A stretch of 24,264 nt of DNA from Escherichia phage EP-M-A (OR992643), one strand, 5' to 3'. Counted from the first letter of the stretch, positions 15,770-24,264 are shown. A program made the numbers and translations. Notes: generated from the sequence alone by a model not told the origin.

Positions 15770-18325
15770 TTAATTAAAACCATTGCTGAATCCGTCGGAG
15801 AAACCGCGACCTAAAGGTGCGACGCCGTCGTATTTGTAGAATCCGTCGTCATAGTTGTAACCCGTAATCTTGACCGTGCGGTCGTCGCCCGGGTCGATTG
15901 AAGAAACAACTATCTTCTGGGCATTATGCCTTGCTTCGTTGCCGAATGAAAACTCAGTTTTTAGCGCACTATTCCCCGTGTAGATTGCCTCCTCAGGTGC
16001 GGAGAGCATAATCACTTCTCGGTCGTGGCTTCCTTTGATAACAGAGATACTCTGCACCGAGCCATCGCGCTTCTTAAGAATGATGGAGTGGTCATCGCCA
16101 GGAGTAAACGTAACAGGCTGGGATAGTGTAAGTGTAAGCCCATTAACGGCAACAACATAGCCATCCTGCGGCGCGATACGCGAGCCTTTAACCACGCTGA
16201 TTACGCCGCCGGGAGTAGCGAGAGCGCCTTCTTCGGTGGCTTCGAACTCTACGACAACTTTACTTAACGCGTTGCGCTGATAGCGACGCCACGCCAGCCA
16301 GTACGCTTGCTGATAGTTGCGCACGCCCTTAGATTCGTACTCCTCGGTGTTTGCTCCGAGTTCTTCCGGGATATAAATCGTTTCCTGTACGTTAGTATCC
16401 GGGTCGATGTACGAGAACGACAGACTATCGTAGGTTGTCGAATCGTTGAACGTGCGGGACCATTTCTCTGTACCGGTCGTCTTACTGCGGTGGGTGAACA
16501 CCATTTCAGGCCCAGCAACAGGACGGTCGAATCTCAGCATAATATCCGCGCCTTTACGGTACGCGGTACAGAACACGGCTTCAGCTATAGTCTGAACGAT
16601 GTCCTGCATCGTGGTGTCGTAGTCGTCGAACGTGTAACAGAACTGACCCGCTAATTCACTTCCGAAATAGGACTCAATCTCTTCCTGCACAGCAAGTAAC
16701 TTGTCCATGTTTGCCGTTGTCAGTTCCAGATTGCCAACCGCAGGGTCCCGAGCCAGTCTGATTAGTGACTGCACCGCCTGCGTGTTCGGAGTCATTACCG
16801 TATCGAATACACCATTACCGAGGTATTTGTAACACATCTCGGTTGCAATCATGCGCAGTTCCGGGTTGTCGATACTGGCGGCTCGCGGGGTCTGTTTACG
16901 GGCGCAATGTACCGTAGTTCTGTTACCGTAGTGGGGGGTTGTATCCAGAGACTGCCCGTACAGGTTGATGAACGTTATCTCGTCACTTACCGTACCGTCG
17001 AAATCTTTATCAGAGTTGCTAACCCGTCTAGCTCTTACGCGGACCCTGCTTGCCATTGGAAGGTAGCCGTAGGCGCTTGTTCCAGTGTAATCGGTGTTGC
17101 GACCAGTTACTACAACCCGTGTCGTGTAAATATCGCCAATCGGCTGTCTTTGTTCGTTTACCGCTTGAAATTGCAGCTCTATCGTGGCGCTTGCAGTGCT
17201 ATAGCTGCCGTTGTAGCGGTACATACCATTAGCGCCGGCGAAGTTAGCCAGGACACGGTCAACACTTCCTCTGGTGATGTAGTACCAGTCGGTTAGCGAC
17301 TTGTTGTATGTGTCCTGCGGGCGCATAGAGTTCTCTGCGTCGTTCCCCCGAATGGCATACCCTACGGCGGCGTTCCAGTCGGATTCGCGCCCTGTAATAT
17401 CTAGAGTAACCGTGTTTTCTGATACGTCTAAAACCCGGTAATGACCAGTAAGAGACACGTCGTTTGTCGTCCACATAGGGCTGCAAACTACGATGTCACC
17501 TACGGATATGTCTTCACTGAAATCTACCGCCGACGAAGTTTCGGTTAGGGTGCCGGTGTTGCCCGAGACGGATACGAATGCCGTTTCACCGTCAAAAACT
17601 ACGCCTAAATCGTTAGGTGCCTTAAGCACAACACCGTCAACATCATCGTTCATAAAAGTAATGTATAATTTTTGGTTTATAACGTCGCCGATCTGTAACT
17701 GCGGTGTAGTTGTGTTGTTTGGTGAAGTGTATGGGGCGTACACAGCAACAGAGGAGCCGGTAATACCGCTAATCTGGGTATCACCTTCTGTGACACCATC
17801 CGCTTCGATATGCAGATGCCCGCGCCCGGCGTCGTAGTATGAATACTCCAGCAAAGCACCAGTTGAGTTGAACGCCTTATACGTCTGCATCAGGTCATTA
17901 GGGATTGTCTGCACAGTACCGCATATGTCATAAGAGCGCTCGTAAGGTCGCGGCTTGTTGGAGCGGTCGGTAAGGCTGTTGTTCGGTGACGTTGTCTGAT
18001 TGTTGGTTGCTGAATAATTAGCGTTAGCCGCGGTGTTAAGCCCGAACAACTTAGCGATTGGCTTAAGGATAAAGCCGAATACCTTCCCAATAGCGTTACC
18101 TATCCCACCACCAGCGCCCTCAATAATGTGGTACACAGCGTCTTCATCTTTAAGCGCGTCGAAGTCGTCAGTTACGTCGGTATCATCACCAATCTCACCG
18201 AGATAGACGCGCACCGGCACGCCGTCCGGGATACGGTTAACGACAAACTCCATCGGCATCCCGACGTGTTTTGTACGGTCGAAAGCGCCTTCAGCGTTTC
18301 GCGTGTAGTGCAGGATTATCGCCAA
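15770..18325 (-). CDS. tail tip / central fibre protein (lambda J-like), 851 aa
   Basis: Large protein at the J position, downstream of M/L/K-like genes. The open frame begins at a TTG (18325); the first in-frame ATG is at 18259, so the start is uncertain. Confidence 0.65.
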   Translation of the reverse strand: MAIILHYTRNAEGAFDRTKHVGMPMEFVVNRIPDGVPVRVYLGEIGDDTDVTDDFDALKDEDAVYHIIEGAGGGIGNAIGKVFGFILKPIAKLFGLNTAANANYSATNNQTTSPNNSLTDRSNKPRPYERSYDICGTVQTIPNDLMQTYKAFNSTGALLEYSYYDAGRGHLHIEADGVTEGDTQISGITGSSVAVYAPYTSPNNTTTPQLQIGDVINQKLYITFMNDDVDGVVLKAPNDLGVVFDGETAFVSVSGNTGTLTETSSAVDFSEDISVGDIVVCSPMWTTNDVSLTGHYRVLDVSENTVTLDITGRESDWNAAVGYAIRGNDAENSMRPQDTYNKSLTDWYYITRGSVDRVLANFAGANGMYRYNGSYSTASATIELQFQAVNEQRQPIGDIYTTRVVVTGRNTDYTGTSAYGYLPMASRVRVRARRVSNSDKDFDGTVSDEITFINLYGQSLDTTPHYGNRTTVHCARKQTPRAASIDNPELRMIATEMCYKYLGNGVFDTVMTPNTQAVQSLIRLARDPAVGNLELTTANMDKLLAVQEEIESYFGSELAGQFCYTFDDYDTTMQDIVQTIAEAVFCTAYRKGADIMLRFDRPVAGPEMVFTHRSKTTGTEKWSRTFNDSTTYDSLSFSYIDPDTNVQETIYIPEELGANTEEYESKGVRNYQQAYWLAWRRYQRNALSKVVVEFEATEEGALATPGGVISVVKGSRIAPQDGYVVAVNGLTLTLSQPVTFTPGDDHSIILKKRDGSVQSISVIKGSHDREVIMLSAPEEAIYTGNSALKTEFSFGNEARHNAQKIVVSSIDPGDDRTVKITGYNYDDGFYKYDGVAPLGRGFSDGFSNGFN

Positions 18326-19193: not shown

Positions 19194-19690
19194 TGCATCG
19201 GGTCCCAAATTCGTGGAAACGTTGATTGCGCGGTTCCGTAGGCTTTAAGGAAACATCCCAGCCCGTCGCCATAGCAACCATACAAATCTGGTAGATTGTT
19301 AACAAGGCACTGGTTATCTTCATCCTGGAACGGTGATTTCTCGGCGGTTGCCGTGAAGGTAATTGTCCAGTTAATGCCGTCTTCGGTTGACTCCGCGATG
19401 GTGGACGTGATTGTTACCTGGTAATCCTCGATGCCCATGCCGAAGTCGTGCGCCATCCAGAAACTTGACGCACCGCCATCGACTTTCTCAAGGAACGACA
19501 GAAACGCCTTCCGCCCTAGTGCCGATGTAATCAGGGTTACGCTTATCGGGAACACGTCGTAATACGTGTCACGGCCCTGGCGCACACCACCACCTGCTAA
19601 ATCGACACTCCAGACGTTGTTGCGTCTGGTCATTGAGTAGCCTTTCGATACCACCGGCTTAAGGCTACGTGGGAAATATAAGTCGCTCAT
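19190..19690 (-). CDS. minor/distal tail protein (lambda M-like position), 166 aa
   Basis: Immediately downstream of the tape measure gene with a TAATG stop/start overlap. Confidence 0.55.
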   Translation of the reverse strand: MSDLYFPRSLKPVVSKGYSMTRRNNVWSVDLAGGGVRQGRDTYYDVFPISVTLITSALGRKAFLSFLEKVDGGASSFWMAHDFGMGIEDYQVTITSTIAESTEDGINWTITFTATAEKSPFQDEDNQCLVNNLPDLYGCYGDGLGCFLKAYGTAQSTFPRIWDPMQ

Positions 19691-21963
19691 TATTTAAACC
19701 CCGGCGCATTTCTTGTGGCCTTGCGGGCCTTGCTAATCTTACTGTTGCTGTTCTGCAAAGAGGCTGCCACTTGCTCCTCGATGATGATACGCAAACGGCC
19801 TTCATCATCTTGCTCGGTGGATACGTTGCCGATTTGAGAACTCGTGTTGTTTACGATGGTAACATTAGCCGGGCCGGAAGAAGACCCGTTTTGGCCCATA
19901 ATCTCTTTCATTTGCTGCGCGGTGCGCACACGCGATGCACCCGCGGGCATGATAACTTCCGGTTTACCGCGTTCGGCGATGGTGGAAGCCTGCCCTGCTG
20001 ATAGCTGCCCGCCCTGTTCACGCGCGGACCTGATAGCGGAAACCTGCGCCATACCCGCCCCAACGGCAGCGGCAGCGGCTACGGGAGCCAGGAACGGGCC
20101 GACTACAGGGATGGCAGCTGTTGACTTATAAGCCTCAATAGCTGCGGTGTACGTGGCGATAGTGGCCTGTACGATAGCGAATGCCTTATACGCGCCAGAA
20201 GCCTCACCCAACGCCGAACCGATGTTTGAAGCCATGTTACCAAAAGCGGTTGCCGTTGCGTCTGCGCGCTTGGTTGCGTACCGCTCATTGATAGCGTTGA
20301 GTGCCGCCTGATACTGTTCCTCGTTAATCAGACCCTGTTCGCGGTATTTATCTGCGACCGCCAGTTTCTGCTGTTCCTGGATGTCGAGAAGCTCGAGTTC
20401 AGTGGCGTTCTGGCCCATAATCTGAGCCATGAAGTCGTCACCTTTCTGCTGTTTTTCTTGGGCTTCTTTCTGGCGCTTATCCAGTTCATCTTGTCGTTTT
20501 TGCCCTGCTTCTAGGACAATAGCCGTTTTTGCTTGCTCGTATTCTTTCAGTGACAGCGCGCCCTGGCTGTAGAACTCTTTTGCCTTAGCCAGTTTCTGCT
20601 GTTCCTGGGCGTCAATAGCCTTTAACTCGTCGTTGTTCTGACGGGCCAAAGTGTCGAGGTAATCCTGGGCCTGTTTGCGCAATTGCTCTGCTTTCTTGGC
20701 GGCGGCTTTTGCTGCTTTATCGTCGGTTTCCCCCGTTCCACCAGTTCCGCCCTTTTTATTAACAAGGCTGGCTAAGTCAATTTCTTGCTTCTTGCGCTCG
20801 TCATACTGCTTGCGCTGTTCCTCAATTTCTTTCTTACGCTGCTTAGACCTGTTGGTAATGGCCTGTGATTCTGCCTCTGCTCGTTTTATGCTGGCGGCGT
20901 ATGCGGCGTCGGCTTCTGCGGTCAGGTTTTTAAATGTTAGCGCTGCCGTTTTGCTCGGGTCAAACACGTCGGCAAGGGTCTGGCCTAACGCTACGGCATA
21001 ATCGTCAATGCGCTGGAACCACGCGATAACCTCGTGGAATGTCTGCTGAATGTCGGGCAACCACTCACGGATAGCGTCCGGTATACCCCCCAGCGAGTCG
21101 GACATATCCACGGATTTGTCCTCGGTATCGTATGCCAGGTCGTTCAAGGCATCAGAGATAAACTTGAACGATTCATTGAACAGTGTTACCCAATCCTGGA
21201 GCGTGGCTGCTATCTCATTAGACGCGATGGCATCAGTAAGCGCCGTGATAGCATCTTCCGCCCTCGCAGCTTGCCCACCTACGGCGTCGCCGAAACCTGA
21301 TTGCGCCACCGCAAGTACAAGGCCGTCAAAGGAGTCCGCGAGGCTGGATAACTGCCCGTCAAGGGTTTTCGAACGCGTTTCCATCGCTCCGGCGAAATCA
21401 GTGTTACCAATATTCAGAAGGTATTTCTGAATCTCTTCGGAGTTCTTCTTAACCGTGGTGGTAACACCGCGGAACGTGAACGACACTGTATCCGCCTGCT
21501 GTGACGACTTGATACCAAACTCTTTCAGTCGCTCAAACTCAAATGTACTGGCGTCCGCCACAGCCTCAATCATCTGATTAAGGTCTTTGCCCATCGCAGC
21601 GGCGGTGTTGCCGTAGGAGATTAACGCCTCTTTGCTGGGGTTAAGACCAAGAGCTACAAGTTTAGTGAAGCCCTCGACCGCCTGATTGAGGCCATACGGG
21701 GTTTCTTTTGCGAACTGTTGCAGGACGCTGAAAGCCTTAGCCGCGTTCTCAGCACTCCCGGTCATTGTGATTAGGCCGGAGTTCAGCTTATCGAAGTTTC
21801 GCTGGGAGTCCACCAGCGCACTGAACACCTGCTTAGCGGTTTCCAGGCTGACAACGGCGGCAGCCGCAGCGCCTGCGGCTTTAGTAAGCCCGTTCAGTTG
21901 TGATGTGACTTTATCGACGCCGGTTGCGGATACTCGTACTATCAAGCTAGCGATATCAGCCAT
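19690..21963 (-). CDS. tail tape measure protein, about 757 aa
   Basis: Long Ala/Gln/Lys-rich alpha-helical protein with coiled-coil character (QQKLA repeated), between GT and M-like genes; start set at ATG 21963 (AAGGTAG upstream), not the TTG at 21978. Confidence 0.85.
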   Translation of the reverse strand: MADIASLIVRVSATGVDKVTSQLNGLTKAAGAAAAAVVSLETAKQVFSALVDSQRNFDKLNSGLITMTGSAENAAKAFSVLQQFAKETPYGLNQAVEGFTKLVALGLNPSKEALISYGNTAAAMGKDLNQMIEAVADASTFEFERLKEFGIKSSQQADTVSFTFRGVTTTVKKNSEEIQKYLLNIGNTDFAGAMETRSKTLDGQLSSLADSFDGLVLAVAQSGFGDAVGGQAARAEDAITALTDAIASNEIAATLQDWVTLFNESFKFISDALNDLAYDTEDKSVDMSDSLGGIPDAIREWLPDIQQTFHEVIAWFQRIDDYAVALGQTLADVFDPSKTAALTFKNLTAEADAAYAASIKRAEAESQAITNRSKQRKKEIEEQRKQYDERKKQEIDLASLVNKKGGTGGTGETDDKAAKAAAKKAEQLRKQAQDYLDTLARQNNDELKAIDAQEQQKLAKAKEFYSQGALSLKEYEQAKTAIVLEAGQKRQDELDKRQKEAQEKQQKGDDFMAQIMGQNATELELLDIQEQQKLAVADKYREQGLINEEQYQAALNAINERYATKRADATATAFGNMASNIGSALGEASGAYKAFAIVQATIATYTAAIEAYKSTAAIPVVGPFLAPVAAAAAVGAGMAQVSAIRSAREQGGQLSAGQASTIAERGKPEVIMPAGASRVRTAQQMKEIMGQNGSSSGPANVTIVNNTSSQIGNVSTEQDDEGRLRIIIEEQVAASLQNSNSKISKARKATRNAPGFK

Positions 21964-22288
21964 GGTTTCTACCTTCAAAGATTGCTTCTAAGCCCATGAT
22001 AATGTCTATCTCGAACAGGCTAAGCTGTTTTTTCGTAACGTCGAGATAGGCTTTCAGGTCTTGCCACGTAACGGATTCTCTTGCAAACAATACTACAGCG
22101 TCCTCGCGCACGTGTCGCGTAAACTTAATGTCGCAATACGTCTCAAAGGTGGATATAAAAAGGGGCGGACATTCCGGCCCACCCCGTCGCGCTGCACGTT
22201 TTTTCTTATCGATTACACCCATCGCGATAAGCGCCTGCTCGTGTCCGTCAGCTATAGAATCAAACTCTCTGATTTTATGCTTATCCAC
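21956..22288 (-). CDS. T segment of a putative G/GT tail assembly chaperone, reached by a programmed -1 frameshift
   Basis: This frame is open from 22345 (inside the G gene) to 21956, is the -1 frame relative to G, has no ATG of its own (GTG in the track), and ends just before the tape measure gene. Confidence 0.45.
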   Translation of the reverse strand: MDKHKIREFDSIADGHEQALIAMGVIDKKKRAARRGGPECPPLFISTFETYCDIKFTRHVREDAVVLFARESVTWQDLKAYLDVTKKQLSLFEIDIIMGLEAIFEGRNHG

Positions 22289-22320
22289 AAACTCGTAGGT
22301 GGCGAACCTGTACAGCGCGT

Positions 22321-22737
22321 CTACTTTTCCTGTAATGCTTTGCGCTCAGCGTTATGGAACGCGGCTACCTGTGTGCCTAATGCCTTGAACTGGTCGAGCA
22401 ACTTGTTAAACGCTTCCTTAGAGAAAGGCTCGTCAAAGCTCCAGCCGTTTACGACTTCTGCCGCAAGTTGCCGGTTGAGGTCTTCCGCCAGTTCGTTAAC
22501 CGCCAGGTTATATTCTGTATAGTCGCCGGAGGCTTTAGCGGTTTTTTCCAGTTCTTCGAAACGCGCCAGTCCGCGACGGTACGCGATAATGAAAGCACGC
22601 CCCGCTTTAACGGCAGCATCCGCATCCGGATTTACAACATTAAGCCATTCCCCTGAGTCTTCACCATTTGGCAGGAGAATCGGCATCTTCTTGCCTACCA
22701 GTGCTTTCTCTTCGAAATAAAAATCAGAAAGTTTCAT
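22321..22737 (-). CDS. tail assembly chaperone (lambda G-like), 138 aa
   Basis: Size and position immediately upstream of GT and tape measure; AAAGGA Shine-Dalgarno; putative slippery site G-GAA-AAG at the last two sense codons. Confidence 0.6.
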   Translation of the reverse strand: MKLSDFYFEEKALVGKKMPILLPNGEDSGEWLNVVNPDADAAVKAGRAFIIAYRRGLARFEELEKTAKASGDYTEYNLAVNELAEDLNRQLAAEVVNGWSFDEPFSKEAFNKLLDQFKALGTQVAAFHNAERKALQEK

Positions 22738-22857
22738 TCTTTAATCCTTTGGTTAAGAGGTTACAGGTTAAGGGAAATGCGCCAGACGGGAACCACCCGC
22801 TTTTCGTGTGCGACACTAGGCGCAAAATTATTCTATCACATTACTTGCGTACCCCAA

Positions 22858-22875
22858 TATAATAGGGTACTATTC
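22858..22875. promoter_or_regulatory. divergent control region: consensus -10 TATAAT (22858-22863) overlapping palindrome AATAG-ggta-CTATTC (22861-22875)
   Basis: Palindrome copy between the leftward tail operon and the rightward Imm gene; leader motif ACACCAACAAT as after the 11220 promoter. Orientation and -35 are ambiguous. Confidence 0.45.
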
Positions 22876-22903
22876 ACTTACACCAACAATGAAGGGGTTT
22901 AAA

Positions 22904-23095
22904 ATGTCCAGTTTACCAGTTTCCTTAATTCTGTTTGCACTGCTCGCTTATTTCGCGCCTTTCCTGGTTGCGTACTTCCGTAACCATAAAGCGAAGTTGG
23001 CGATATTCATGGCTAATCTGTTTCTTGGCTGGGTTCTGCTGCCGTGGGTATTTATTTTAATCTGGGCTTGCAACTCGAACGTGAAAGAGAAGTAG
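22904..23095 (+). CDS. small membrane protein resembling superinfection immunity (Imm-type) proteins, 63 aa
   Basis: Two hydrophobic segments and the pattern YFAPFLVAYFRNH...NLFLGWVLLPWVFILIWA; GAAGGGG Shine-Dalgarno 6 nt upstream of ATG 22904 (the track ORF starts at 22889). Family assignment is from memory. Confidence 0.55.
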   Translation: MSSLPVSLILFALLAYFAPFLVAYFRNHKAKLAIFMANLFLGWVLLPWVFILIWACNSNVKEK

Positions 23096-23133
23096 GCTAC
23101 TATAAGACAAATCCTAAACACGAGGAAGTAAGC

Positions 23134-24264
23134 ATGGCCCAGAAGAAAATAACCGACGAACAGTTACAGGAAGAATTGAACGCCGGGATGAAGAATATAG
23201 ATATCGCCCGTAAATACGGCATCTCAGACCGCGTTATTCGTATCCGTAAAGCGAAGCTGGCGAAAAAAGGCGTAGGCCACGGGCGTGACGTTAGCCATCT
23301 AGTACCAGACGGCTACAAGATTAAAGGAACGTCGTCACTGGTGGACGAGTTCGGCAACACTAAGTTGCAATGGGTTAAGACAGACACCGATGCCGAACGT
23401 CAGGTCGAGTTGATGAAAGCCGTAATCGAAGGAATGAAATCAGAGATTACGCCAGTCGCCCCTGTTAAAGCAGCACGCGCCAAACGCGACGACAAGCTAC
23501 TCAATCTTTACACGGTATCTGATTTTCATCTCGGTATGCTGGCCTGGGCCGACGAGAGCGGCGACGACTGGGACATGAAGATTGCGGAAGACCTGTTCTC
23601 CCGCTGGTTCGACGCGGCGTTTCAGAAAGCACCGGATGCAGGAACTGGAGTTATTAACCTGCTAGGCGACTTCGCGCACTTCGATAGCCTGGATGCCGTT
23701 ACGCCAACTAGTGGTCATGTCCTTGACGCTGACACGCGCTATCAGAAACTGGTCCGCTACATGATTCGTATGGTACGCCGTGTTGTAGATATGGCACTTG
23801 TTAAGCATAGAAATGTTCGTTTGCTTATAGTGCAAGGGAACCACGACGAAAGCGGAATGATTTGGCTGGCTGAGATGTTCAGTACGCTGTACGACAATGA
23901 GCCTCGTGTGTTCGTCGATACGTCGCCGGATGTGTACAAGATGGTACAACACGGCAAAACGACTCTGTTCTTTACACATGGCCATAAATGTCGGTTTGAG
24001 GTGGTCGAACCAATTATGATAGCTAAGTTCCGCAAAGCGTTTGGCGAAAGCGAGTACAGCTACGCCCACGTAGGCCACCTGCACCATCAGAAAATCGTAG
24101 AAAGCCGTAACATGATTGTCGAGCAGCACCGAACCCTGGCGGCGAAAGATGCATATGCTTCCCGCGGAGGGTGGATGTCGGGCCGTAGTGCAAATGTAAT
24201 TACTTATAGCGCCGAATATGGCGAGGTTGCACGTTTAACTATTTCACCGGAGATGCTGGGATGA
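23134..24264 (+). CDS. calcineurin-like metallophosphoesterase (SbcD/Mre11-type motifs) with an N-terminal HTH-like domain, 376 aa
   Basis: Motifs SDFHLG, LLGDFAHFD, VQGNHDE, THGH, HVGHLHH; N-terminal NIDIARKYGISDRVIRIRKAKL is HTH-like; GAGGAAG Shine-Dalgarno before ATG 23134; TGA stop at the window end. Confidence 0.7.
   Translation: MAQKKITDEQLQEELNAGMKNIDIARKYGISDRVIRIRKAKLAKKGVGHGRDVSHLVPDGYKIKGTSSLVDEFGNTKLQWVKTDTDAERQVELMKAVIEGMKSEITPVAPVKAARAKRDDKLLNLYTVSDFHLGMLAWADESGDDWDMKIAEDLFSRWFDAAFQKAPDAGTGVINLLGDFAHFDSLDAVTPTSGHVLDADTRYQKLVRYMIRMVRRVVDMALVKHRNVRLLIVQGNHDESGMIWLAEMFSTLYDNEPRVFVDTSPDVYKMVQHGKTTLFFTHGHKCRFEVVEPIMIAKFRKAFGESEYSYAHVGHLHHQKIVESRNMIVEQHRTLAAKDAYASRGGWMSGRSANVITYSAEYGEVARLTISPEMLG

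What the first reader, a model, noticed from the sequence alone, without database searches (positions are those of the whole stretch)
22315..22350. Candidate programmed -1 frameshift (G/GT) at the end of the tail chaperone gene
The chaperone gene ends ...CAG GAA AAG UAG. The -1 frame is open from 22345 through to 21956, just before the tape measure start, and has no ATG of its own. The heptamer G-GAA-AAG has an A-AAG A-site, the kind of Lys-tRNA slippery codon used by E. coli dnaX, directly before the stop. This matches the conserved G/GT architecture of long-tailed phages, although the site is not the canonical X-XXY-YYZ form.
Basis: partly seen in the sequence, partly recalled or inferred. 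Interest (0 to 1): 0.5.

Follow-up and report, generated by a model that had tools for sequence, protein, structure and literature searches.

The report
Phage tail chaperone G/GT frameshift site
This is the expected -1 ribosomal frameshift that joins the two tail assembly chaperone reading frames of a K1G-like E. coli phage. It is already annotated in close relatives, but it runs on a minimal A-AAG slip site followed by a stop codon and a conserved long-range RNA helix.

Summary
On the minus strand, the 138-aa chaperone gene (22737..22321) ends CAG GAA AAG TAG. The -1 frame is open from 22345 to the TGA at 21958..21956, which overlaps the tape measure ATG (21963).

The window is a Kagunavirus (K1G-like, Guernseyvirinae). 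GenBank/RefSeq K1G has the identical junction and already carries the joined 260-aa product, ...QEK|VDAL....

In 86 related loci (T part 41-99% identical):
- A_AAG is invariant.
- A stop (TAG or TAA) follows directly in 85 of 86.
- The preceding codon varies: GAA, GCA, AAA, GUA, GGA, UCA.
- Third-codon-position variability switches from frame 0 to frame -1 exactly at the site.

So the core signal is the A_AAG tetramer, not a canonical heptamer.

Two candidate stimulators are absent: there is no upstream Shine-Dalgarno-like element and no conserved local hairpin. Instead, an invariant GCGCUG box starts 5 nt after the slip site. It forms an 8-12 bp helix with a distal partner, 22319..22310 with 22197..22188 in the window, and the helix shows compensatory changes. 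This is a plausible stimulator but is untested.

Verdict: a real, ordinary and already annotated G/GT frameshift. The signal anatomy is a modest new detail.

The parts
22321..22737 (-). Gene G: tail assembly chaperone, 138 aa, frame 0, ending GAA AAG TAG
   Evidence: ORF and translation. Pfam Phage_TAC_4, E 7e-6, 26.7 bits against a cut-off of 21.1. phrog_15027 positions 1-138 of 259, E 2.7e-71.
22324..22330 (-). Slip site G_GAA_AAG. The conserved core is the tetramer A_AAG (22327..22324).
   Evidence: Sequence. A_AAG is present in 86 of 86 relatives, while the preceding codon varies: GAA 60, GCA 21, AAA 2, GUA 1, GGA 1, UCA 1. In L099 and L102 the -1 frame is open only 2 codons upstream, which confines the shift to C_GCA_AAG.
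22321..22323 (-). Frame-0 stop TAG, directly 3' of the slip site
   Evidence: The stop follows AAG directly in 85 of 86 relatives (TAG 61, TAA 24, never TGA). The one exception has it one codon later.
22346..22348 (-). TGA that closes the -1 frame upstream. It limits the possible shift window to 22345..22324.
   Evidence: Translation of the -1 frame.
21956..22324 (-). T segment: 122 codons in the -1 frame (GTA GAC GCG CTG ...) plus TGA. It is translated only as the C-terminal half of the 260-aa GT fusion.
   Evidence: Pfam Phage_TAC_18, E 2.6e-18. phrog_15027 positions 139-259. tblastn matches in 493 phage records, nearly all starting at residue 1. Third-position entropy follows the -1 frame from the first codons after the stop.
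22310..22319 (-). 5' arm (CGCGCUGUAC) of the long-range helix. It starts 4-5 nt after the slip site and contains the invariant GCGCUG box.
   Evidence: GCGCUG is invariant in 28 representatives, including two synonymous positions. It is in the MFE helix, predicted by RNAalifold, and supported by covariation counts.
22188..22197 (-). 3' arm (GUGCAGCGCG) of the long-range helix. It closes a domain of about 110 nt.
   Evidence: In relatives with a 121-aa T, the partner lies at rel 199-209 instead.
22152..22185 (-). Terminator-like hairpin (GGGGUGGGC / GUCCGCCCC, 6-nt loop) followed by UUUUUAUAUC. It lies inside the T coding part, 2 unpaired nt after the 3' arm of the helix.
   Evidence: The same element is present in 13 of 28 representatives, with covarying stem extensions. 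Its function was not tested and it may not belong to the frameshift signal.
19690..21963 (-). Tape measure protein gene. Its ATG overlaps the T stop (ATGGCTGA).
   Evidence: phrog_1538, E 2e-192. Pfam TMP_3. Annotation of relatives.

Best explanation
This is the programmed -1 ribosomal frameshift site of the tail assembly chaperone pair (G and GT) of a K1G-like siphophage.

Most ribosomes read ...GAA AAG and terminate at the adjacent TAG, making the 138-aa G protein. A minority slip back one base on A_AAG: the single E. coli tRNA-Lys moves from AAG to AAA. They then read GUA GAC GCG CUG... and make a 260-aa G-T fusion that ends at the tape measure start.

The P-site codon does not need to re-pair. 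It is GAA here and GCA, GUA, UCA, AAA or GGA in relatives. The site therefore belongs to the tetramer/hexamer (NNA_AAG) class, not the canonical heptamer class.

The slip is probably promoted by a conserved long-range RNA helix whose 5' arm begins 4-5 nt after the slip site (22319..22310 pairing with 22197..22188). The immediately adjacent stop codon may also contribute. It could act as a slow-to-decode 'shifty stop', or it could make non-shifted ribosomes terminate before they melt the helix.

Shown here: the sequence features, their conservation, the switch of coding phase, the covariation of the helix, and existing database annotation of the fusion.

Inferred: that slippage actually happens, its rate, which tRNA site slips, and that the helix and the stop are stimulators. 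The roles of the products (G and the G part of GT binding the tape measure, the T part recruiting the tail tube protein) are taken from lambda by analogy.
For: Identity:
- The window is 99.9% identical to Escherichia phage EP-B-K_E2 and 93-96% identical to K1G-like Kagunavirus genomes.

Family assignment:
- G matches Phage_TAC_4 and T matches Phage_TAC_18.
- Both halves match one 259-position PHROG built from the fused chaperone.

Prior annotation:
- K1G has the identical junction. Both its GenBank and RefSeq records carry a two-piece CDS.
- That product is exactly ...ALQEK|VDALYR... (ADA82267.1 / YP_009168804.1; exact look-up).
- fFiEco02 and Shemara are annotated 'frameshift product'.

Conservation of the junction:
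- 86 of 86 loci have A_AAG, and 85 of 86 have the stop directly after it.
- The -1 frame is closed 2-68 codons upstream of the slip site in every locus, only 2 codons upstream in L099 and L102.
- There is no conserved start codon in T. The codon annotated as a start in some records is CTG in Bas74 and TTG only in the Jerseyvirus/Golestan lineage.
- The site of high third-position entropy moves from frame 0 to frame -1 at the slip site.
- In-frame A_AAG is otherwise rare in these genes.

Literature:
- A_AAG is the most shift-prone tetramer in E. coli, 5.6% with a pseudoknot placed 5 nt downstream (PMC4066793).
- NNA_AAG sites are used by IS1222 and occur in B. subtilis cdd (PMC5009743).

The helix:
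- It appears in the MFE of the window, wksl3, Klebsiella 37P2 and Shemara, with z-scores of -2.05, -2.65, -4.27 and -2.92.
- RNAalifold predicts it in both lineage groups.
- 96.8% and 84.7% of cells are paired, against 11-54% when the 3' partner is slid by 1-3 columns.
- 3 and 6 pairs have changes on both sides.
- 0 of 500 shuffles reach the observed covariation score.
- The best helix formed by the 14 nt just after the stop scores higher than that from any of 155 other windows in the same locus, in 13 of 28 representatives including the window.
Against: - There is no experimental evidence for this phage family. No protein data, ribosome profiling or reporter assay was found.
- In E. coli reporters, tetramers without a stimulator were barely above background (PMC4066793). 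The explanation therefore depends on a stimulator whose function is only inferred.
- P-site re-pairing from GAA to GGA would need a G-U pair in the middle position.
- The window's own helix is predicted with probability about 1.0 in a 200-nt context, and is in the MFE at 147, 200 and 260 nt. In a 300-nt fold the probability falls to about 0.05, because an alternative lies 1.6 kcal/mol lower.
- Both helix arms are coding sequence for conserved residues, so part of their conservation comes from the protein.
- One relative (Esher4, L026) lacks a good long-range partner.
- A published genome note on a related phage found 'no canonical slippery sequence' and did not call a frameshift (PMC6776780).
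Confidence: 0.85

Rival explanations
1. T is an independent gene. Ribosomes initiate on their own within the -1 ORF, at GTG 22288 or at the CTG/TTG codon 6 nt after the G stop, as many automatic annotations assume. This would make a free protein of 110-119 aa with no frameshift.
For: the ORF listing gives a 110-aa ORF from GTG 22288. Many GenBank/RefSeq records annotate two separate 'tail assembly chaperone' CDS starting 6 nt after the stop (wksl3, Golestan, Bas74). The Shashou note reports no canonical slippery sequence. The AGGA in CAGGAAAAG could serve as a weak Shine-Dalgarno sequence about 12 nt upstream of the CTG.
Against: - The annotated start is CTG in Bas74 and in the window, and TTG only in one lineage.
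- The GTG of the window is not conserved in relatives.
- Codon-phase conservation begins upstream of the GTG.
- The CTG lies inside the 5' arm of the conserved helix.
- Independent initiation would not explain A_AAG in 86 of 86 loci, the stop directly after it in 85 of 86, or the fixed -1 relation of the two ORFs.
Confidence: 0.07
2. Termination-reinitiation. Ribosomes finishing G at TAG do not leave the mRNA, and restart nearby in the -1 frame. T would then be made in proportion to G but unfused.
For: The stop codon is conserved right at the junction, which is also what coupled reinitiation would need. A GTA, CTG or TTG codon lies within 0-9 nt.
Against: No ATG or GTG lies within reach of the stop in most lineages. 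This mechanism has no need for A_AAG or for a downstream helix placed 5 nt away. By analogy with lambda, the T domain works only when tethered to G (PMC5009743).
Confidence: 0.03
3. Transcriptional slippage. RNA polymerase adds or drops an A in the A-run, so that a fraction of mRNAs encode the fusion in a single frame.
For: The site contains a short A-run (GGAAAAG). Slippage on A/T runs is used by some bacterial and phage genes (PMC5009743).
Against: The run is only 4 A here and 3 A in the CGCAAAG and AGCAAAG variants. That is well below the 9-T run the review cites for T. thermophilus dnaX. The G after AAA is invariant, which matters for a tRNA-Lys AAG-to-AAA slip but not for polymerase slippage.
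Confidence: 0.02
4. The frameshift is real, but the long-range helix is not its stimulator. The helix and the adjacent terminator-like hairpin instead structure the rarely translated T region for another purpose, such as protection from RNases or Rho, or attenuation of transcription into the tape measure gene.
For: After the G stop, about 360 nt are translated by few ribosomes. A terminator-like hairpin with a U run sits inside this region in 13 of 28 lineages. Lambda is reported to use low-level shifting on a highly shift-prone heptamer (PMC5009743). That lambda needs no stimulatory structure is my recollection only.
Against: The 5' arm keeps the same distance from the slip site (rel 5/6) in 27 of 28 representatives, while the 3' arm sits at rel 126-136 or at rel 199-209. 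This is the geometry of a frameshift stimulator and matches the 5-nt spacer of the A_AAG plus IS3 pseudoknot reporter. A bare A_AAG tetramer is close to background without a stimulator.
Confidence: 0.3

Closest known systems
Phage lambda G/GT tail assembly chaperone frameshift (G_GGA_AAG), and the conserved G/GT arrangement of long-tailed phages (Levin 1993; Xu, Hendrix and Duda 2004, as cited in PMC5009743)
   Same: Two overlapping ORFs directly upstream of the tape measure gene. A -1 shift near the end of the first ORF, with AAG (Lys) as the last 0-frame codon read. The fusion product carries all of G plus a T domain. One close relative of the window (L041) has exactly G_GGA_AAG.
   Different: Here the P-site codon cannot re-pair canonically (GAA, or GCA and others in relatives). 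The stop codon directly abuts the slip site. A conserved long-range helix follows. The G gene is separated from the tail tube side of the tail module by an inverted four-gene block in relatives. The Pfam families here are TAC_4 and TAC_18, and no lambda gpG or gpT family appeared among the Pfam hits.
Tetranucleotide/hexanucleotide -1 shift sites of bacteria: A_AAG and NNA_AAG (IS3 constructs, IS1222 G_CGA_AAG, B. subtilis cdd A_CGA_AAG; Licznar 2003 and Sharma 2014)
   Same: Slippage of tRNA-Lys alone from AAG to AAA, with any NNA codon before it. Dependence on a downstream structure about 5 nt away. The reported level is low, 5.6% at best with the IS3 pseudoknot.
   Different: Those are transposase or incidental cases with a local pseudoknot or hairpin. 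Here the context is a phage chaperone gene, the structure is a long-range helix closing 110-185 nt, and a stop codon occupies the spacer.
E. coli dnaX (A_AAA_AAG with an upstream Shine-Dalgarno-like element and a downstream stem-loop)
   Same: The same A-site codon and the same tRNA-Lys property. Two relatives (L076, L081) have A_AAA_AAG.
   Different: There is no upstream Shine-Dalgarno-like stimulator: the site sits at the median (0.575 percentile) of the background. There is no local stem-loop. The P-site is non-canonical.
'Shifty stop' frameshifting (Weiss et al. 1987; cited in PMC5009743)
   Same: A stop codon immediately 3' of a slippery codon, conserved in 85 of 86 loci, with the rare UAG preferred (61 of 86).
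   Different: Whether the stop stimulates the shift here is untested. The review passage I read uses the term for a yeast case with UGA in the A site. I did not read the 1987 paper.
Long-distance frameshift stimulators of plant RNA viruses, such as barley yellow dwarf virus (from memory, not checked here)
   Same: A base-pairing partner far downstream of the slip site is needed to complete the stimulatory structure.
   Different: Those interactions span kilobases and act on eukaryotic ribosomes with canonical heptamers. Here the span is 110-185 nt within one coding region.

Membership tests
G/GT-type tail assembly chaperone with programmed -1 frameshift | Two overlapping ORFs immediately upstream of the tape measure gene, with the second in the -1 frame of the first | tested here: met
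   G is 22737..22321 and the -1 ORF runs to 21956, overlapping the tape measure ATG at 21963. The same arrangement is found in 86 of 86 relatives.
G/GT-type tail assembly chaperone with programmed -1 frameshift | The pair lies between the major tail (tube) gene and the tape measure gene | tested here: inconclusive
   In Bas74 the tail terminator gene and an adjacent gene annotated only as 'minor tail protein' are followed by four genes on the opposite strand, and only then by G, T and the tape measure gene. I did not identify the tube gene. In the window, the genes upstream of G are also on the opposite strand.
G/GT-type tail assembly chaperone with programmed -1 frameshift | Both halves are homologous to known tail assembly chaperone families | tested here: met
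   Phage_TAC_4 at 26.7 bits (cut-off 21.1) and Phage_TAC_18 at 66.4 bits (cut-off 27). phrog_15027 covers both halves.
G/GT-type tail assembly chaperone with programmed -1 frameshift | The second ORF has no conserved start codon of its own, and its coding constraint begins at the overlap | tested here: met
G/GT-type tail assembly chaperone with programmed -1 frameshift | The fusion protein is made at a low, fixed ratio to G and is needed for tail assembly | not testable with these tools
   This needs protein analysis or genetics. Only database annotations of the fusion exist.
Canonical X_XXY_YYZ heptamer slip sites | The P-site tRNA can re-pair in the -1 frame (XXY to XXX) | tested here: not met
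   G_GAA_AAG needs GAA to GGA. Relatives have C_GCA_AAG, A_GCA_AAG, G_GUA_AAG and G_UCA_AAG. Only 3 of 86 are canonical: G_GGA_AAG once and A_AAA_AAG twice.
Z_ZZN tetramer / NNA_AAG hexamer -1 shift sites (E. coli type) | A_AAG with AAG in the 0 frame, allowing cognate AAG-to-AAA re-pairing | tested here: met
   Present in 86 of 86 loci. The motif class is described in PMC4066793 and PMC5009743.
Z_ZZN tetramer / NNA_AAG hexamer -1 shift sites (E. coli type) | A downstream stimulatory RNA structure about 5-6 nt after the motif | tested here: met
   A structure is present and covaries. Whether it stimulates the shift was not testable.
Z_ZZN tetramer / NNA_AAG hexamer -1 shift sites (E. coli type) | Measured -1 frameshifting above background | not testable with these tools
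   A reporter or protein assay is needed.

The most novel reading that the evidence does not exclude
The Guernseyvirinae G/GT signal is a three-part recoding cassette that has not been described:

- a minimal A_AAG tetramer;
- a frame-0 stop codon held inside the 5-nt spacer;
- a covarying long-range helix whose 5' arm (the GCGCUG box) is fixed next to the slip site, while its 3' arm has moved between lineages (110 nt or 185 nt away).

In about half the lineages, a terminator-like hairpin also lies inside the T region. Together these RNA elements would set the G : GT : tape measure ratio. The stop would keep the 0-frame majority of ribosomes from melting the slow-folding helix. This reading would also explain why annotators report 'no canonical slippery sequence' in this family.
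Probability: 0.45. Interest if true: 0.5.

Novelty: already known. Interest (0 to 1): 0.3.

Why it matters
The frameshift matters mainly for correct annotation. Many Kagunavirus and Jerseyvirus records split the chaperone into two genes with improbable CTG or TTG starts, or state that no slippery sequence exists. The comparative data show instead that the site is a conserved A_AAG tetramer.

If the long-range helix and the adjacent stop prove to be stimulators, this family would be a natural phage example of single-tRNA (NNA_AAG) frameshifting driven by a non-local structure. It would be easy to test in E. coli. It would also help frameshift-prediction tools that look only for heptamers and for local folds of 50-100 nt.

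Tried and rejected
- **Local downstream hairpin or pseudoknot.** RNAalifold on rel -60..+100 of 72 junctions found only a trivial 3-bp pairing. The window's first 100 nt after the slip site fold no better than shuffles (z -0.38).
- **Upstream Shine-Dalgarno-like stimulator.** The anti-SD duplex energy 6-17 nt upstream is at the background median in 28 representatives.
- **A stem enclosing the slip site** (upstream AGCGC pairing with downstream GCGCU). I rejected this by inspection. It is not conserved, and both arms would lie in or at the ribosome footprint.
- **Alternative partners for the GCGCUG box.** Candidates at rel 88-93, rel 63-68 and rel 296-300 appear in some folds. They are not conserved across lineages, and GCGC is self-complementary, so such hits are expected by chance.
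- **+1 shift.** Reading the sequence by eye, the +1 frame ends after about 13 codons.
- **Known RNA families over the junction.** The Rfam scan found none. Its only match is int-alpA in the leader of G.
- **Literature searches** for Kagunavirus or Guernseyvirinae frameshifting found no experimental study.
- **Licznar 2003** could not be read. Its result is cited through the Atkins review.
- **An error of mine.** One row of alignment A3 (L025) was entered with wrong coordinates and counts as a gap row. Shemara was checked separately with the correct coordinates.

Full report
**Observation.**
All genes discussed are on the minus strand. The ORF 22737..22321 (138 aa) ends CAG GAA AAG TAG, with the stop at 22323..22321. 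In the -1 frame there is a TGA at 22348..22346. After it the frame reads GCG CAA AGC ATT ACA GGA AAA GTA GAC GCG CTG ... and stays open to the TGA at 21958..21956. That TGA overlaps the tape measure start (ATG 21963) in the sequence ATGGCTGA.

The overlap in which a shift could occur is therefore 7 codons long, and G_GAA_AAG (22330..22324) is the only slip-prone sequence in it. A shift there gives a 260-aa product. One point needs softening: the -1 ORF does contain a GTG (22288) and an internal ATG.

The motif alone is weak evidence, with about a 2.4% chance of falling in the overlap. It is, however, the only in-frame A_AAG in G, and such sites are scarce in the neighbouring genes, at 2 in 758 and 0 in 852 codons.

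**What the locus is.**
The region is 99.9% identical to Escherichia phage EP-B-K_E2 and 93-96% identical to K1G-like phages of the genus Kagunavirus, subfamily Guernseyvirinae.
- The first ORF matches Pfam Phage_TAC_4 and the -1 ORF matches Phage_TAC_18.
- Both match the two halves of a single 259-position PHROG, 'tail assembly chaperone'.
- The next gene is the tape measure protein (phrog_1538, E 2e-192).
- Upstream of G lie opposite-strand genes, including a superinfection immunity gene.

**The frameshift is already annotated.**
Phage K1G has the identical junction sequence. Its original GenBank record (GU196277) and its RefSeq record both carry a two-piece CDS, ORF22B. An exact-sequence look-up shows that this deposited protein (ADA82267.1 / YP_009168804.1, also found in fKuEco01) is precisely G joined to T as ...ALQEK|VDALYR.... 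fFiEco02 and Shemara are annotated 'frameshift product'.

Annotation across the family is nevertheless inconsistent.
- wksl3, Golestan and Bas74 list two separate genes starting 6 nt after the stop. In Bas74 that codon is CTG.
- The genome note for the related phage Shashou says there is 'no canonical slippery sequence' (PMC6776780).
- I found no experimental study of this family.

**Comparative evidence.**
tblastn with the T part finds 493 phage records down to about 40% identity, nearly all aligned from residue 1, that is, from the codon overlapping the G stop. I collected 86 loci, 66 of them with distinct junctions, from annotated phages and IMG/VR contigs and read every junction.
- A_AAG is present in 86 of 86.
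- The frame-0 stop follows directly in 85 of 86 (TAG 61, TAA 24). It is one codon later in the remaining locus.
- The heptamer varies: GGAAAAG 60, CGCAAAG 12, AGCAAAG 7, GGCAAAG 2, AAAAAAG 2, and GGUAAAG, GGGAAAG and GUCAAAG once each.
- The -1 frame is always closed a short way upstream. In L099 and L102 it is closed only two codons upstream, which confines the shift to C_GCA_AAG.

In 28 representatives sharing at most 88% identity, the positions of high entropy are the third positions of frame 0 upstream of the site and the third positions of frame -1 downstream of it. The T frame is therefore under protein-coding selection from the slip site onward. Neither the window's GTG nor any other start codon is conserved.

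**Anatomy of the signal.**
The conserved core is the tetramer A_AAG, with any NNA codon before it. This is the tetramer/hexamer class of bacterial -1 sites. According to the Atkins review, A_AAG slippage of tRNA-Lys occurs at A_CGA_AAG in B. subtilis cdd and is used at G_CGA_AAG by IS1222, and its efficiency depends on the preceding codon's tRNA (PMC5009743). Sharma et al. found A_AAG to be by far the best tetramer in E. coli. It gave 5.6% with the IS3 pseudoknot placed 5 nt downstream, but tetramers as a group were barely above background without a stimulator (PMC4066793). So I looked for a stimulator.
- There is no upstream Shine-Dalgarno-like element.
- There is no conserved or unusually stable local hairpin.
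- The six bases GCGCUG at rel +6..+11 (rel 0 is the G of AAG) are invariant, or nearly so, in all 28 representatives. This includes two synonymous third positions, whereas another conserved Ala codon nearby varies freely.

**The long-range helix.**
Folding longer segments shows that this box is the 5' arm of a long-range helix.
- Window: CGCGCUGUAC (22319..22310) pairs with GUGCAGCGCG (22197..22188). This is 10 bp with one G-U, closing about 110 nt (z -2.05).
- Jerseyvirus wksl3: the arms are GCGUUGUUUC and GAAACAACGC, a perfect 10 bp with several compensatory differences from the window (z -2.65).
- Klebsiella phage 37P2: GCGCUGUA and UACAGCGC (z -4.27).
- Lineages whose T part is one codon shorter (fFiEco02, Shemara and many metagenomic phages): the 5' arm is in the same place, but the partner is at rel 199-209. 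An example is GCGCUGUAUGA with UCAUACAGCGC, and the helices are 10-12 bp. The 3' arm uses the rare Ile codon AUA. Predicted pairing probability is about 1.0 in all 17 such representatives.

RNAalifold predicts the helix in both groups. The pair counts are in the table below.

| Measure | 121-aa T group | 122-aa T group, incl. window |
|---|---|---|
| Cells forming a standard pair | 96.8% | 84.7% |
| Same, with 3' partner slid by 1-3 columns | 11-54% | 22-52% |
| Pairs with changes on both sides | 3 | 6 |
| Examples of pair types | – | C-G 9 / U-A 7; U-A 6 / A-U 5 |
| Shuffles reaching the observed covariation score | 0 of 500 | 0 of 500 |

As a further background test, I compared the best helix formed by the 14 nt right after the stop with that from 155 other windows of the same locus. 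It scored higher than every one of them in 13 of 28 representatives, including the window.

Caveats:
- Both arms encode conserved residues.
- The lineages are related, so the shuffle control overstates significance.
- The window's helix is in the MFE in 147-, 200- and 260-nt contexts, but in a 300-nt fold it loses by 1.6 kcal/mol to a non-conserved alternative.
- Esher4 (L026) lacks a good long-range partner, and its local hairpin is not significant.

**Mechanism proposed.**
With GAA in the P site and AAG in the A site, the helix begins 4-5 nt beyond the A-site codon. This is the geometry of known bacterial stimulators and of the A_AAG plus pseudoknot reporter. Resistance to unwinding during translocation would favour tRNA-Lys re-pairing from AAG to AAA. 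GUA (Val) is then read, and the fusion continues to the tape measure start.

The conserved adjacent stop may add to the effect as a slowly decoded A-site codon. This would be a P-site slip of tRNA-Lys at a 'shifty stop', and UAG, the rarest stop, is preferred while UGA is never used. Alternatively, the stop may simply make the non-shifted majority terminate inside the spacer, so that they do not melt a slowly refolding long-range structure.

The protein sequence cannot tell these slip models apart, because both frames encode Lys at the junction. These steps are inferences. The functions of G and GT are taken from lambda.

**Rivals.**
- Independent initiation or termination-reinitiation of T is made unlikely by four things: no start codon is conserved, a CTG occupies the annotated start, A_AAG is invariant, and that codon lies inside the helix arm.
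- Transcriptional slippage is unlikely with runs of only 3-4 A.
- A weaker rival is that the frameshift is real but the helix serves another purpose in the rarely translated T region. The fixed distance of the 5' arm from the slip site, despite a relocated 3' arm, argues for a role in recoding. Only mutagenesis can decide.

**Comparison and novelty.**
Functionally this is a lambda-type G/GT frameshift, and it is already annotated at the identical site in the type species, so the finding is already known. It fails the canonical heptamer definition and fits the A_AAG tetramer class. I did not find three things described anywhere: the family-wide tetramer-plus-stop arrangement, the invariant GCGCUG box, and the covarying long-range helix with alternative 3' partners. 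They are a modest refinement that can be tested directly.

**Seen in passing.**
- A terminator-like hairpin with a U run lies inside T (22185..22152). It is conserved in 13 of 28 lineages, with covarying stem extensions and rare GGG and CCC codons.
- The Rfam int-alpA motif matches the leader of G (22826..22762) at 33.1 bits. It passes the gathering score in Golestan at the same position.

Noticed in passing
window 22152..22185 (minus strand), inside the T coding part: An intrinsic-terminator-like element: the stem GGGGUGGGC / GUCCGCCCC (9 pairs, 6-nt loop) followed by UUUUUAUAUC, starting 2 unpaired nt after the 3' arm of the long-range helix. The same element (GGGGC-N6-GCCCC plus a T run) is present in 13 of 28 divergent relatives. 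Its stem extensions covary (AAA/UUU, AGA/UCU, GAAAC/GUUUU) and it uses the rare codons GGG and CCC. It is almost the only terminator-like site in G plus T. It could attenuate transcription into the tape measure gene, or it could be part of the frameshift structure.
   Followed up: partly
window 22762..22826 (minus strand), 5' leader of gene G: A match to the Rfam int-alpA RNA motif (RF02996, function unknown): 33.1 bits against a gathering score of 35.8, E 9e-5. The same position upstream of G matches in Golestan (36.6 bits, passes gathering), L043 (33.5 bits) and L063 (30.9 bits).
   Followed up: partly
window 22321..22323 and the equivalent position in 86 related loci: The G stop codon is TAG in 61 loci and TAA in 24, and never TGA, although GUG (Val) would be acceptable in the -1 frame. 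TAG is normally the rarest stop. This may point to selection for a slowly decoded stop that only RF1 recognises.
   Followed up: no
L041 (IMGVR_UViG_2974654489_000001), L076 and L081: A close relative of the window has the canonical lambda heptamer G_GGA_AAG, one A-to-G change from the window that makes the G C-terminus QGK. Two distant relatives have the dnaX-type A_AAA_AAG. All three keep the stop and the GCGCUG box.
   Followed up: no
window 22777..24264 (plus strand), and L001 1710-3453: The chaperone and tape measure genes are cut off from the rest of the tail module by an inverted block: a small ORF, a superinfection immunity gene (22889..23095, phrog_1039), and a DNA repair exonuclease/metallophosphoesterase gene running to the window end. 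Promoter-like sites on the plus strand lie at 22835-22863 and 22877-22905.
   Followed up: no
GenBank/RefSeq records of relatives (L001 Bas74, L021 wksl3, L022 Golestan, L026 Esher4): Many records annotate the T part as a separate gene starting 6 nt after the G stop. That codon is CTG in Bas74 and TTG in wksl3. Others omit T altogether (Klebsiella 37P2), and the Shashou note states that no canonical slippery sequence exists. Annotation of this frameshift is inconsistent across the subfamily.
   Followed up: yes
window genes G, tape measure and ORF 15770..18325 (minus strand): In-frame A_AAG is scarce: 1 in 139 codons of G (its last sense codon), 2 in 758, and 0 in 852. This is consistent with avoidance of this shift-prone tetramer in coding sequence.
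   Followed up: no
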